DNA of 64,000 nt from the NCBI GenBank assembly GCA_030295235.1, contig AP026139.1, positions 372,001 to 436,000 of the forward strand, in the 5' to 3' direction. Under the pieces are notes generated by a model. The model was not told where the DNA came from. It did not search any database and was given only the letters and a program-made list of their open reading frames with translations. Position numbers and translations under genes: made by a program. Each line of letters starts with the position of its first letter. The stretch's first letter is position 1. Below are positions 36,946 through 40,183 of the stretch, in pieces. The stretch comes from Fistulifera solaris. Its lineage: Eukaryota.

Positions 36946-38925
36946 ATGCATTCTGCGCGCTCACCAAATGGTCACAAATCGGGTGACAAGTTTGATCGCT
37001 TCGAAAAATGGTTGCGCGACAACGGCGCAAGGTTCGATCAGGTAAGTGATGAAATCATCCATCCGTGAATGTTATTTCTTCCGTATCGCTGACACTTTCT
37101 TCTATCTTCGCTGGGTGTACATAGCTTGAAATAAAAGTTTACGATGATGGATCCTCGTCGTCGTCTCGTGGAAGAGGAGATGACAGTAACGAGGAGAAAA
37201 AAAGACACTGTGACAAAGGATGAAGGAGAAGAATCCGAAATGCGAGGAGTTCACGCTCTATCTCACATTCCTCCGAATACTCTCGTTATGAGCATTCCCC
37301 GAAAATGTCTCATCACTGTCGAAATGGGCCAAGCTACACCGATAGGTCAAGCCATTCTCAATTCCGATCTCGATCTCGATGCACCAAAACATATCTTCCT
37401 CATGGTCTACTTACTTTGGGATCGCAAAGTAAATGGAAAGAATTCGTTCTTCTTTCCTTATTACGAAGTCTTGCCGAAAACGCTAAAAAATATGCCCATA
37501 TTTTGGTCTAAGGGAGAATTAGCCGAGTTAAATGGAAGCTATCTGCAACAACAGATTGCGGATCGCAACCAAGCCATAGCGGAAGATTACCGTGCCATAT
37601 GCGAAGTGGCACCCCAAATGCGTGAATTGGCCACGTTGGAGGAGTTCAAATGGGCACGTATGTGTGTTTGTTCGCGTAACTTTGGTCTACAGATCGATGG
37701 ACACCGCACGAGCGCCCTCGTTCCGCACGCCGACATGCTCAACCATTATCGTCCCCGTGAAACGAAGTGGACGTTTGACGAGGATCGACAAGCATTCACA
37801 ATAACATCATTGCAACACATTGGCAACGGATCGCAAATTTATGACTCGTACGGACAAAAATGCAATCATCGTTTTTTGCTCAATTACGGTTTTGCCGTGG
37901 AAGACAACCGCGAACTGGATGGCTTCTGTCCCAATGAGGTCCCCTTGGAGCTCTACATCTCCCCGGATGATCCTTTGTTAAATGAAAAACTTGAGTTTTG
38001 GACCAGAGGGGAAATCAGTGACAAAAGTCAAGGAGCTTCAGGGCGAGGGACGACTCGAATACAATCAGTTAACGCCCCAGAATCATTCGGTGCTCCGCCT
38101 CTGTTGAAGCGTATCAGGGTTTGCGTTTCGAGCAATGAGAACACGCGTCTATTATTCAGTCTTTTAAGGGCTTTAGCTTGCAATGGTCCGGAACTAAATG
38201 CTCTGGCATCTCCGGTGTCTGCTTCCTGCGGTCCTATCGTGCGGGGAGACGACCGCAGTTCAGCCAACGTTGCGCGCAGCTTGTTCGGATTTCCTGAGTT
38301 GCCGTCATCAAATAGCGTTTTGACTGGCAGCCCTATACCATTCGGCGCTACCTATCATCGCTCTTGTCGTGACATACGCCACCCTGTTAGCTTGCGAAAT
38401 GAGCGCGCAGCACTACGGTTGCTATTACAAATTGTAGAAAGACATCTCTCGGAATACTCGACAACACTGGCCGCAGATGTGACCGACCTCCTCGACGAAC
38501 TAGCATATCCACGCTTTAGTAATAAACGCCACGCCAAAATTCAAGTTCGTGGAGAGAAGGAAGTATTGCACCATTTTGCGCGCTGGGCAACAACTGGACT
38601 GGAAGTTTTGGATGTGATAGAGGAAGAGTTACAGGAAGAAAGGGGATCCATTGAGGTTTCCAGCACAGGTCGCGTTTCAGTGGTGAGTCATGAAGAACGA
38701 CCTTCCTTCGACTACATGATTCAGCGTATGGAGGAGGATGCCGAATCTCGTGACATCGGACACCATACAATAGTTCGTTATTGTGCAGATGTACTGGGAA
38801 GTCTGAGGCGTGAGGAGTTCAAAAACATTCGCCGACAAAGACTCCTGCAACAAGAGCAACCGCGAGCTAGGACTTCATCCGGGCGCATCTGGAGATCCCA
38901 TGAACCTGGTAGCAGTAACAGATAA
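36946..38925 (+). CDS. SET-domain protein-lysine/histidine methyltransferase (LSMT/SETD3-like); intron 37042-37124; frameshift near 37200
   Basis: FEKWLRDNG, RGVHA, VCSRNF, LVPHADMLNH, IYDSYGQKCNHRFLLNYGF. Confidence 0.88.
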
Positions 38926-39203
38926 TGCAGTAGTCCCTTGTTATTAAGAAGTCTGCGTAGTTTTATCTACTGGCAATGCTGAATAAGGTACATTACCAGT
39001 GGCATACCAACTACACAGTTAGTAGCAGCTCATGTTGTAACTATGGATTTTCGTCGCTTTGTTTATTTATTGCTGAAAATCCCTCGTCACTATTGCTAGG
39101 ATTGACAAAATGATGTGGAAGATGTTCTTTGTAGCGAGGCGACTCACTTAGCGTCGCAGCGAAACCCAATTTTAATAGACGGAAGGCGAACAGTCTCTCT
39201 CTC

Positions 39204-39260
39204 TCGGACTCGGACCGGACACCGGACACCGGACACAGGACACGGGACATCGGACGCCAG
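39204..39260 (+). repeat. Degenerate 7-bp tandem repeat (GGACACC-like, about 7-8 units) in a promoter
   Basis: cggactcggaccggacaccggacaccggacacaggacacgggacatcggacgccag. Confidence 0.75.
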
Positions 39261-39541: not shown

Positions 39542-40183
39542 ATGAAGTTCTCTGCTGCTTTCGTTGCTTTGATTGCCGGAGCCACGGCTTTCACTCCGGC
39601 TCAGCCTAGCTTTGCTCGCACTTCCGTCAAGGTATACAACCTTGAGAAGGGTGCCGGTAAGTCATCTCAATAAATGATGTTTTTTAAATATTTTTTACTC
39701 AAAATGCAGTTGGATTCTCACGCATTTCGACATTGCAGGAGGTATGTTCGACACACGCAACCCCGAACCCGTGAAGCACGAAGATGCTCGCAAGTCGATC
39801 AGTGAGGCTCCGTCGTTCGAAGAGTACATGAAAATGCGAAATGGCGGTGCCCCTGCTGCCCCTGCCCCTGCACCGGCTGCTTACACACCTCCCGCTGCAC
39901 CGGCATGGGCTCCTCCTGCTGCCCCCGCTTGGGCCCCCCGGCTGCTCCTGCCTGGGCTCCTCCCGCCGCCCCCGCTTGGGCACCTCCTGCTCAAGCGCCC
40001 GCCCCGTGGTCGCCACCGGCCGCCGCCCCGGCTCCTGCTGCCCATGGCGGTGCCCCAGTCAAGGGTGCCGGTGGTATGTTCGATACCCGTGATCCTGAAC
40101 CAGTCAAGCACGAGGACCCTCGCAAGTCGATCAGCGCCGCTCCTTCCTTCGAAGAGTACATGAAGATGCGTAACAACCAGTAA
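39542..40183 (+). CDS. Plastid-targeted small repeat protein (two 38-aa motifs + Pro/Ala/Trp linker); intron 39657-39738; one C missing near 39935
   Basis: MKFSAAFVALIAGATA-FTPAQPSFART bipartite presequence; spliced frame continues into GGMFDTRNPEP; strong codon bias. Confidence 0.85.

What the first reader, a model, noticed from the sequence alone, without database searches (positions are those of the whole stretch)
39542..40183. Plastid-targeted 'dumbbell' protein: two 38-aa motifs joined by evenly spaced Trp repeats, a candidate multivalent linker
Seen (after splicing and restoring one C): presequence ATA-FTP, then KGAGGMFDTRNPEPVKHEDARKSISEAPSFEEYMKMRN, then a linker AAYTPP-(AAPAWAPP)x4-AQAPAPWSPP, then KGAGGMFDTRDPEPVKHEDPRKSISAAPSFEEYMKMRN. 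The two motifs differ at many synonymous sites but only 3 residues, indicating selection. Established: pyrenoid Rubisco linkers (EPYC1; diatom PYCO1 with KWSP motifs) are disordered repeat proteins with aromatic stickers. Inference: a bivalent scaffold or condensate protein of the stroma or pyrenoid. I cannot assign it to a named family.
Basis: partly seen in the sequence, partly recalled or inferred. Interest (0 to 1): 0.72.

Follow-up and report, generated by a model that had tools for sequence, protein, structure and literature searches.

The report
Two-headed diatom plastid docking protein
A small diatom chloroplast protein carries two copies of a highly conserved, undescribed peptide module that many other algal chloroplast proteins also carry as a tag, so it probably ties two copies of one still unidentified chloroplast target together, perhaps the carbon-fixing enzyme Rubisco.

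Summary
The gene has two exons (39542-39656 and 39739-40183). Contigs from two runs lack the 82-nt intron. The frame break is one base missing from a C-run: every contig covering it has an extra base. The two 38-aa motifs differ at 20 of 114 nt, but only 3 codons change the residue (dN/dS about 0.02).

The motif is not private to this gene. It is a module with no Pfam or PDB match, found in 257 proteins of diatoms, bolidophytes and a xanthophyte. Of these, 109 are motif-only preproteins with a mature part of about 40 aa. Another 31 have two or three copies. Eighty are fused by Pro/Ala linkers to bestrophin, fasciclin, an RCCR-fold domain, peroxidase, an iota-CA-like domain and others.

Sixteen of 121 diatom bestrophins end in the motif or its C-terminal helix. 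A published experiment shows that the C-terminal extension of PtBST3 is needed for pyrenoid localisation (PMC11142338).

My reading: the motif is a disordered docking module and this protein is a bivalent cross-linker. Rubisco or the pyrenoid is the leading target, at about 0.35 to 0.4, but it is unproven. I found no description of the motif in print.

The parts
39542..39656 (+). Exon 1. It holds the signal-peptide-like region (39542-39589, ending ATA), the +1 Phe, a short transit-peptide-like stretch, and the first residues of motif 1 (K at 39647).
   Evidence: Translation. The presequence pattern is shared by 130 of 165 family members that have an N-terminal motif; the +1 residue is F in 121 of them.
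39657..39738 (+). Intron, 82 nt, gtaagt..gcag, phase 1.
   Evidence: Contigs without the intron in runs X3 and X5 (tables 5 and 8).
39739..39842 (+). Motif 1, the remainder (G..MFDTRNPEPVKHEDARKSISEAPSFEEYMKMRN).
39843..40060 (+). Pro/Ala-rich linker with Trp or Tyr before [AST]PP. It contains the frame break.
   Evidence: The homologous linkers are listed.
39888..39991 (+). 24-nt tandem repeat, 4.4 copies, encoding AAPAWAPP units.
39934..39939 (+). Run of six C where the window lacks one base compared with every covering contig.
   Evidence: table 4 (insertion behind 39933 or 39934 in X1 and X2).
40061..40174 (+). Motif 2 (KGAGGMFDTRDPEPVKHEDPRKSISAAPSFEEYMKMRN).
40175..40183 (+). Last two codons (N, Q) and the TAA stop.

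Best explanation
Shown. This is an expressed, spliced nuclear gene of a diatom-like alga. It encodes a preprotein of about 190 aa with a signal peptide, an ATA|F site and a short transit-like stretch, which is the stramenopile pattern for import into the plastid stroma. The mature protein is intrinsically disordered. It consists of two copies of a 36-38 aa module joined by a Pro/Ala spacer of about 70 aa with Trp every 8 residues. The module consensus is G-A-G-G-M-[FA]-D-T-R-[DN]-P-x5-[ED]-D-P-R-K-S-I-S-x-A-P-S-F-E-E-Y-[ML]-K-x-R. It is an old, strongly conserved unit of ochrophyte plastid proteins. It occurs alone as a mature peptide of about 40 aa, in tandem, and fused through Pro/Ala linkers to the N- or C-termini of unrelated proteins.

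Inferred. The module is a docking peptide (a 'sticker') that folds on binding. Its invariant C-terminal part, SFEEY[ML]K.R, is the only segment predicted to be helical. It would present F, Y, M/L and R on one face. This part can also work alone, as it seems to at the tails of bestrophins and in multi-copy proteins. All carriers would be brought to one conserved plastid target. With two modules on a spacer that is probably extended, this protein would bridge two target particles or two sites, acting as a bivalent cross-linker or adaptor. The aromatic residues in the linker may add weak contacts.

Most likely target. The leading candidate is the Rubisco matrix or pyrenoid. Bestrophin channels and an iota-CA-like protein carry the tag. 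PtBST3 needs its C-terminal extension to reach the pyrenoid. The arrangement also parallels the Chlamydomonas Rubisco-binding motif.

My odds: gene model 0.95; module is a docking motif 0.7; target is Rubisco or the pyrenoid 0.35 to 0.4.
For: Gene model and expression. Spliced contigs exist, and the extra base is present in all four covering contigs.

Selection. dN/dS between the two copies is about 0.02.

Family size and forms. There were 104 hits among proteins of near length, 146 representatives at E<=1e-3 and 31 longer proteins. An HMM finds the module in all 257 collected proteins: 226 have one copy, 28 have two and 3 have three. By form, 109 are small motif-only preproteins, 53 have the motif N-terminal to a partner of more than 60 aa, 21 have it C-terminal, 25 are plain two-copy proteins, and 3 are two-copy with a partner.

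Conservation. Columns not fixed by the regex used to extract the instances are nearly invariant. Examples are G-x-G-G-M, A-P before SF, E33 and K36. Alignment A3 of 88 proteins gives the same picture.

Fusion partners. All 80 fused proteins were scanned against Pfam. The results were Fasciclin 11, Bestrophin_2 4, and peroxidase, CaMKII_AD x2 (iota-CA-like), Methyltransf_11 and EF-hand 1 each; 61 had no Pfam family. Among the proteins without a Pfam family, one domain type in 14 proteins has the RCCR/bilin-reductase fold (model pTM 0.65; Foldseek 3agb_A E 3e-8). A second unknown domain occurs in 11.

Disorder. The AF2 model of close homologue P0008 has mean pLDDT 60 and pTM 0.16. Apart from the signal-peptide helix, its only helices of four or more residues lie over SFEEYMKMR, at 65-73 and 168-175. 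The Atlas model of the motif-only protein P0083 has pLDDT 0.39.

Multivalent relatives. P0178 has nine [FY][ED][ED]YM.SR words spaced 23-45 aa apart, plus the full module at its C-terminus.

Bestrophins. Sixteen of 121 diatom bestrophins end in the module (3) or in a word like ..S[FM][EA][ED]FL[KR].Q (13). There were 0 matches in the other 51,544 residues, and 0.015 were expected from shuffled tails.

Published experiment. Removing the C-terminal extension of PtBST3 moves it from the pyrenoid to stroma thylakoids. The authors found no motif in the extension (PMC11142338, passages read).

Parallel system. [quoted passage not shown]

Presequence. 130 of 165 members with an N-terminal motif have a hydrophobic start followed by [AGSC]|F/L/W.
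Against: - No result here shows binding to anything. The target is inferred only from the fusion partners and one published truncation.
- I could not verify that PtBST3 itself carries the module. P0303, an unnamed 519-aa bestrophin of the same length as PtBST3, ends in a much weaker variant.
- The most frequent identifiable partners are the RCCR-fold domain (14), fasciclin (11) and peroxidase (1 by Pfam, plus P0196 by a weak PDB match). These are not known pyrenoid or CCM proteins. They point as much to pigment or ROS chemistry at thylakoids.
- The commonest form is a free peptide of about 40 aa, which has no cargo to dock. A pure tag model does not explain it.
- Motif-only forms occur in Tribonema and Triparma. 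These lineages, as far as I recall, have inconspicuous pyrenoids or none.
- No named hit came from Phaeodactylum or Thalassiosira. Only about a quarter of records carry names, so this is weak.
- The protein is near neutral (pI about 6.8 to 8.2 for the window's pieces and for homologues). EPYC1, as I recall, is basic.
Confidence: 0.4

Rival explanations
1. The architecture is the same, but the module docks its carriers to a thylakoid-surface hub such as a photosystem, an antenna complex, or ferredoxin/FNR. This protein would then bridge two such complexes.
For: The commonest partners with a recognisable fold are an RCCR/ferredoxin-dependent bilin-reductase-fold domain (14 proteins), fasciclin (11) and haem peroxidase (P0262; P0196). 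Fasciclin is the fold of water-soluble carotenoid-binding AstaP proteins, which I saw only in the search listing. Bestrophins and the iota-CA-like protein P0197 are membrane proteins anyway. Automatic labels call the family 'PS II complex 12 kDa extrinsic protein'.
Against: No chain of any solved diatom photosystem or antenna complex in the PDB matches the module or P0122 at E<=10. The PsbU-type label has no support from Pfam. The presequence has no second hydrophobic lumen-targeting domain. The PtBST3 truncation result concerns the pyrenoid.
Confidence: 0.2
2. The module is mainly a small regulatory peptide that works like CP12. The free 40-aa form binds and regulates one or two stromal enzymes. 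The two-copy protein is a tandem duplicate that raises dose or avidity. The fusions are secondary.
For: Motif-only preproteins are the largest class (109 of 257). They are the only form seen in the named Tribonema and Triparma records. The peptide is disordered and extremely conserved, like CP12.
Against: The module has none of the CP12 hallmarks, and the mature protein has no Cys. Eighty fusions to at least nine unrelated partner types, at either end through flexible linkers, are what a localisation tag looks like, not an enzyme regulator. Multi-copy arrays such as P0178 are also hard to explain as regulators.
Confidence: 0.15
3. The module binds itself. It would be an oligomerisation tag, so that all carriers, free peptides and two-headed proteins co-assemble into a network without an outside target.
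For: A self-binding tag would explain free, tandem and fused forms together. The PYCO1 stickers do oligomerise (PMC10288592).
Against: Nothing here tests it. The module is predicted to be disordered, with one short helix and no coiled-coil character. Near-invariance over the whole 36 aa across ochrophytes fits a conserved folded partner better.
Confidence: 0.1
4. The protein is a polyprotein precursor. The Pro/Ala linker is cut out and two free 40-aa peptides are released.
For: The free peptide is the commonest form. Both copies begin with the same K-G-A-G-G.
Against: The linkers vary widely in length and sequence (17 to 95 aa) and have no conserved cleavage site. The same kind of linker joins the module to folded partner domains, where cleavage would defeat the fusion.
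Confidence: 0.05

Closest known systems
Chlamydomonas Rubisco-binding motif (RBM) shared by EPYC1, SAGA1/2, RBMP1/2 and CSP41A (PMC7673724)
   Same: Both are short conserved motifs in disordered regions. Both occur in one or many copies, often at the exact C-terminus. Both sit on soluble and membrane proteins of unrelated function, including a bestrophin-type channel.
   Different: There is no sequence relation. The RBM is [D/N]W[R/K]xx[L/I/V/A], whereas the module here is 36-38 aa, has no Trp and has an acidic helix. Binding of Rubisco is shown for the RBM but not here. The RBM has no free single-motif peptide form that I know of.
PYCO1, the Rubisco linker of Phaeodactylum (PMC10288592)
   Same: Both are diatom plastid-targeted disordered repeat proteins with aromatic residues in low-complexity spacers. 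PYCO1 also has a short helical motif that binds the large subunit and contains an acidic residue, an aromatic residue and a Met (AAEWGSMNQ).
   Different: The protein here has no KWSPRGGS or GTGYNP sticker. It has 2 modules rather than 5 or 6 repeats. The module is widespread in ochrophytes, whereas PYCO1 is described as not widely conserved (preprint 10.1101/2023.10.26.564148). WSPP and WAPP in the linker only look like KWSP.
CP12 (small disordered Calvin-cycle regulator)
   Same: Both are small, nuclear-encoded, disordered, highly conserved plastid peptides that also occur fused to other proteins.
   Different: The module has no Cys pairs and no CP12 core sequence, and Pfam finds nothing. 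Its fusion partners are much more diverse.
Encapsulation peptides of bacterial microcompartments and CsoS2/CcmM-type carboxysome linkers (from my own knowledge)
   Same: Both are short amphipathic helices on flexible linkers at either end of cargo proteins. They recruit cargo to a CO2-fixing compartment.
   Different: The comparison rests on architecture only. Different kingdom, no sequence similarity, target unknown here.

Membership tests
Generic sticker-and-spacer multivalent linker or adaptor | Intrinsic disorder with short conserved motifs separated by low-complexity spacers | tested here: met
   AF2 model of homologue P0008: mean pLDDT 60, pTM 0.16, helices only over SFEEYMKMR. Pro/Ala makes up 60-88% of the linker in most two-copy relatives.
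Generic sticker-and-spacer multivalent linker or adaptor | The same motif is shared by other proteins of the same compartment | tested here: met
   80 fused carriers and 16 of 121 bestrophins.
Generic sticker-and-spacer multivalent linker or adaptor | The motif binds a multivalent client (Rubisco) and drives condensation | not testable with these tools
   This needs biochemistry.
PYCO1 | KWSPR/Q(GGS) sticker that binds the small subunit, and GTGYNP self-sticker | tested here: not met
   Neither string occurs in the window's translated pieces or in homologues P0008 and P0235. The motifs were taken from the paper.
EPYC1 / Chlamydomonas RBM proteins | [D/N]W[R/K]xx[L/I/V/A] motif | tested here: not met
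   The module has no Trp. In the linker, Trp stands in A-W-[AS]-P-P, with no basic residue after it.
CP12 | Conserved Cys pairs and a match to the CP12 domain | tested here: not met
   No Cys in P0001, P0002, P0003 or P0005. No Pfam hit at E<=10.
PsbU / 'PS II complex 12 kDa extrinsic protein' (automatic label of P0122 and of the Atlas cluster) | PsbU domain, similarity to solved PSII extrinsic subunits, and a presequence for the thylakoid lumen | tested here: not met
   No Pfam family for the window pieces or P0122. No PDB chain at E<=10 for P0003 or P0122. Exon 1 has only one hydrophobic segment.
Stramenopile stroma-targeted preprotein (ASAFAP-type) | Signal peptide followed by an aromatic residue at +1 of the cleavage site, then a transit-peptide-like stretch | tested here: met
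   ATA|FTP in the window. The same pattern occurs in 130 of 165 relatives, with F in 121. This was judged by a simple rule of my own, not by ASAFind or SignalP, which are not available here.

The most novel reading that the evidence does not exclude
The 36-38 aa module, with its minimal SFEE[YF][LM]K.[RQ] helix, is the general pyrenoid-targeting and Rubisco-binding signal of diatoms and their relatives. It would be the red-lineage counterpart of the Chlamydomonas Rubisco-binding motif. Two-headed proteins like this one, and many-headed ones like P0178, would be the missing Rubisco cross-linkers of diatoms that lack PYCO1. Tagged bestrophins and iota-CA would be what fixes the CO2-delivering thylakoid inside the matrix.
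Probability: 0.3. Interest if true: 0.9.

Novelty: new variant of a known kind. Interest (0 to 1): 0.7.

Why it matters
Diatom pyrenoids are credited with about a fifth of global CO2 fixation. Only one linker, PYCO1, is known, and it is absent from centric diatoms. The Thalassiosira pyrenoid proteome found no repeat linker and no shared targeting motif (preprint 10.1101/2023.10.26.564148; review PMC13655443).

A conserved module is reported here. It is carried by bestrophins, an iota-CA-like protein and dozens of other plastid proteins, and it occurs in bivalent and multivalent form. That gives a concrete, cheap test: tag the module, delete it, or pull down with it. If the target is Rubisco, the result would explain how pyrenoids assemble in much of the red lineage and would offer a portable targeting tag. 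If the target is something else, it would still reveal an unknown organising hub of the ochrophyte plastid. Either way, a Pfam-less family of at least 257 proteins gains a defined domain.

Tried and rejected
- **Complex prediction, no verdict.** I ran the module (alignment A3) against a diatom RbcL and RbcS taken from metagenome locus L009 (alignments A2, A1). The verdict was 'no answer' with score 0.00, and the controls were not run. The tool did not use my alignments, and it is untested on peptides. I draw no conclusion from it.
- **Sequencing runs.** No listed holder is on record as RNA. The spliced contigs of X3 and X5 are the only sign of transcription.
- **Text searches.** The motif words gave only unrelated matches. 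Searches for diatom pyrenoid motifs, linkers, DPC proteins, LCIP63 and fasciclin found no description of this module. 'Complex 12 kDa extrinsic' found nothing relevant.
- **PtBST3 sequence.** The held supplement of PMC11142338 has no sequence text. My bestrophin search returned no record named Phaeodactylum among the 120 listed of 717. Whether PtBST3 carries the module therefore remains open. bioRxiv supplements (the candidate tables of both pyrenoid preprints) are closed and may bear on this.
- **Pseudogene reading.** Rejected because of the extra base in all four covering contigs and the low dN/dS.
- **Reading the linker as PYCO1-like stickers.** Rejected.
- **Partner domain ending in PGCPGC.** It has no Pfam or PDB match.

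Full report
**1. The observation**

The region 39542-40183 holds a two-exon gene on the + strand.

- Exon 1 (39542-39656) begins with a hydrophobic stretch ending ATA, then F-T-P and a short hydroxylated/basic stretch.
- The intron 39657-39738 has gtaagt..gcag ends.
- Exon 2 gives the first motif and the start of a Pro/Ala linker.
- The reading frame then slips by one base inside a run of six C (39934-39939). The rest of the linker and the second motif are read in the next frame, down to TAA at 40181-40183.

I laid contigs of four public runs on the stretch.

- Two runs (X3 record 17, X5 record 19) hold contigs that join 39655 to 39738 and skip exactly the 82 nt. So spliced RNA, or a copy of it, exists.
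- All four contigs that cover the C-run have one more base than the window. In X1, one contig has +C and is otherwise identical. A second X1 contig has +T with 10 other differences and is probably the other allele. The two X2 contigs have +C.
- The frame break is therefore an error of the assembly or a strain difference.
- X1 may be the sample the window was assembled from. It still disagrees with the window at this base.

A 98% identical database protein, P0006, reads straight through with four AAPAWAPP units. That record starts inside the intron, so its deposited gene model lacks the presequence.

Tandem Repeats Finder reports the 24-nt repeat at 39888-39991 with 4.4 copies.

The two motif copies differ at 20 of 114 nt. 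Fifteen codons differ synonymously and three change the residue. This gives pS 0.71, pN 0.039 and dN/dS about 0.02. Both copies have been kept by selection for a long time. The window holds no further copy.

**2. What the motif is**

The motif has no Pfam family (E<=10) and no PDB chain (E<=10). It is nevertheless far from unique.

- The near-length search gave 104 hits.
- The exhaustive search of cluster representatives gave 146 at E<=1e-3.
- The search among longer proteins gave 31.
- Named records come from diatoms (Coscinodiscus, Odontella, Entomoneis, Proboscia, Nitzschia, Cylindrotheca, Trieres), from Triparma and Bolidomonas, and from the xanthophyte Tribonema. The Atlas cluster of the motif-only protein lists haptophyte members.

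I built an HMM from 257 motif instances and ran it on the 257 collected proteins. All have the module: 226 once, 28 twice and 3 three times. By form they split as follows.

| Form | Proteins |
|---|---|
| Small preprotein, only presequence plus module (mature part about 40 aa) | 109 |
| Module near the N-terminus, followed by more than 60 aa | 53 |
| Module at the C-terminal end, after more than 90 aa | 21 |
| Plain two-copy 'dumbbell', like the window's gene | 25 |
| Two-copy plus a partner domain | 3 |
| Three-copy | 3 |
| Fragments or unclear | 43 |

The consensus is [KIL]-G-A-G-G-M-[AF]-D-T-R-[DN]-P-x5-[ED]-D-P-R-K-S-I-S-A-A-P-S-F-E-E-Y-[LM]-K-x-R. Columns that my extraction pattern did not fix, such as G-x-G-G-M, A-P, E33 and K36, are almost invariant (also alignment A3).

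Among 165 proteins that start with Met and have the module at residues 25-75, 130 show a hydrophobic start followed by [AGSC]|F/L/W, and the +1 residue is F in 121. This is the stramenopile pattern for stromal import, here judged by a simple rule of my own. There is no second hydrophobic domain that would send the protein on into the lumen.

**3. Partners**

I scanned all 80 fused proteins against Pfam.

| Partner | Proteins |
|---|---|
| Fasciclin | 11 |
| Bestrophin_2 | 4 |
| Peroxidase | 1 |
| CaMKII_AD x2 (P0197) | 1 |
| Methyltransf_11 | 1 |
| EF-hand | 1 |
| No Pfam family | 61 |

- P0197 has the domain type of iota carbonic anhydrases. It contains an HHHSS string and, by eye, a hydrophobic segment between the module and the domains (sequence).
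- A further protein, P0196, is ascorbate-peroxidase-like by a weak PDB match (E 4e-4).
- Of the proteins without a Pfam family, 14 share a domain of about 270 aa. I modelled it (pTM 0.65). It has the fold of red chlorophyll catabolite reductase and ferredoxin-dependent bilin reductases (3agb_A E 3e-8, TM by target 0.65).
- Eleven share a domain of about 95 aa that ends in PGCPGC. It has no Pfam or PDB match.
- Two share a third unknown domain.
- The joints are Pro/Ala-rich linkers like the one in the window.

**4. The short form of the motif**

Some relatives repeat only the C-terminal part.

- P0178 (356 aa) has nine words of the type [FY][ED][ED]YM.SR spaced 23-45 aa apart and ends with the full module. 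P0117, P0156 and P0222 are similar.
- I searched bestrophins with P0239. Of 717 hits the best 120 were listed, and I analysed 121 bestrophins in all, counting P0241.
- Sixteen of the 121 end, after a disordered extension, in the full module (3) or in ..S[FM][EA][ED]FL[KR].Q.. (13). These include records named Amphora, Fistulifera, Epithemia and Seminavis.
- The pattern occurs nowhere else in 51,544 residues of these proteins. Shuffled tails give 0.015 matches per 121.

**5. Structure**

AF2 on the close homologue P0008, with an alignment of 24 sequences, gives mean pLDDT 60 and pTM 0.16. Apart from the signal-peptide helix, the only helices of four or more residues lie over SFEEYMKMR in both modules. 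The Atlas model of a motif-only protein has pLDDT 0.39. The protein is therefore a disordered chain with two short helix-prone segments.

**6. How it most likely works**

The features listed here are those of a docking peptide that recruits carriers to one conserved target:

- strong conservation of a disordered 36-aa peptide;
- use at either end of unrelated proteins through flexible linkers;
- occurrence in two, three or about ten copies;
- a helix-prone end that can act alone.

A protein made of two such peptides and a Pro/Ala spacer would bridge two targets.

Which target is an inference. Three points favour Rubisco or the pyrenoid.

- Bestrophins and an iota-CA-like membrane protein carry the tag.
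- In Phaeodactylum, removing the C-terminal extension of PtBST3 moves it from the pyrenoid-penetrating thylakoid to stroma thylakoids, and the authors found no motif there (PMC11142338).
- Chlamydomonas uses just such a shared C-terminal motif, also on a bestrophin-type protein (PMC7673724).

Several points speak against it.

- The most frequent partners (RCCR-fold domain, fasciclin, peroxidase) are not known pyrenoid proteins and suggest pigment or ROS chemistry at thylakoids.
- The commonest form is a free peptide.
- Motif-only forms occur in lineages that I recall as having no conspicuous pyrenoid.
- I could not show that PtBST3 has the module.

My odds are 0.7 that the module is a docking motif and 0.35 to 0.4 that the target is Rubisco or the pyrenoid.

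**7. Comparison with known systems**

- It works like the sticker-and-spacer linkers EPYC1 and PYCO1 and like the Chlamydomonas Rubisco-binding motif, but it is a member of none. It has no KWSPR or GTGYNP (motifs) and no [D/N]W[R/K]xx[LIVA]. The WAPP and WSPP of the linker only look like KWSP.
- Trp in the linker is not conserved in the family. Of 31 multi-copy relatives, 15 have Trp in the first inter-motif linker, 11 have only Tyr and 5 have no aromatic residue.
- It is not CP12: it has no Cys and no Pfam hit.
- The automatic label 'PS II complex 12 kDa extrinsic protein' is attached to P0122 and to the Atlas cluster. Pfam, PDB and the presequence do not support it.

**8. Novelty**

- A full-text search for six words of the motif found nothing relevant.
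- The 2026 review of pyrenoid linkers names only PYCO1 for diatoms (PMC13655443, passages).
- The Thalassiosira pyrenoid study reports no repeat linker and four components of unknown function (preprint 10.1101/2023.10.26.564148, passages).

I rate this a new variant of a known kind: a new, undescribed module family used in the known sticker-and-spacer manner.

**9. Verdict**

Interest is 0.7, because a cheap experiment could show either the general pyrenoid-targeting signal of diatoms or an unknown organising hub of their plastids.

Noticed in passing
window 37135-38925 (+): The gene just upstream encodes a SET-domain protein with a Rubisco-LSMT substrate-binding domain (Pfam Rubis-subs-bind E 4e-12, SET E 1e-5). 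Standing next to a candidate Rubisco-related gene may be chance.
   Followed up: partly
P0006 (98% identical public record), compared with window 39657-39738: The deposited protein model starts inside the intron and lacks exon 1. The record therefore has no plastid presequence and would not be predicted as plastid-targeted.
   Followed up: partly
P0178, P0117, P0156, P0222 (database proteins): These proteins have three to nine copies of the short helix word [FY][ED][ED]YM.SR at 23-61 aa spacing. Three of the four end in the full module. Their valency resembles known Rubisco linkers.
   Followed up: partly
121 diatom bestrophins (P0239-P0241, P0263-P0380): Sixteen end in the module or in ..S[FM][EA][ED]FL[KR].Q.. 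after a disordered extension. There were no matches elsewhere, and 0.015 were expected by shuffling.
   Followed up: yes
P0250 and 13 relatives (alignment A5): A Pfam-less domain of about 270 aa fused behind the module has the fold of red chlorophyll catabolite reductase and bilin reductases. This suggests a diatom RCCR-like enzyme family that carries the tag.
   Followed up: yes
P0049, P0076, P0238 and 8 others: A partner domain of about 95 aa that ends in PGCPGC has no Pfam or PDB match. It is found behind one or two modules.
   Followed up: partly
window 39200-39260: A CGGACA-like microsatellite lies about 300 nt upstream of the start codon.
   Followed up: no
window 39619-40018, run X1: Two contig versions differ at 10 or 11 positions per 146-209 nt, including inside the intron and at the C-run. 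This looks like two alleles of a heterozygous diploid (table 8).
   Followed up: no
Atlas cluster of P0083; UniRef name of P0122: The family carries the automatic name 'PS II complex 12 kDa extrinsic protein'. Pfam, PDB and the presequence do not support it, so it is probably a propagated mislabel.
   Followed up: partly
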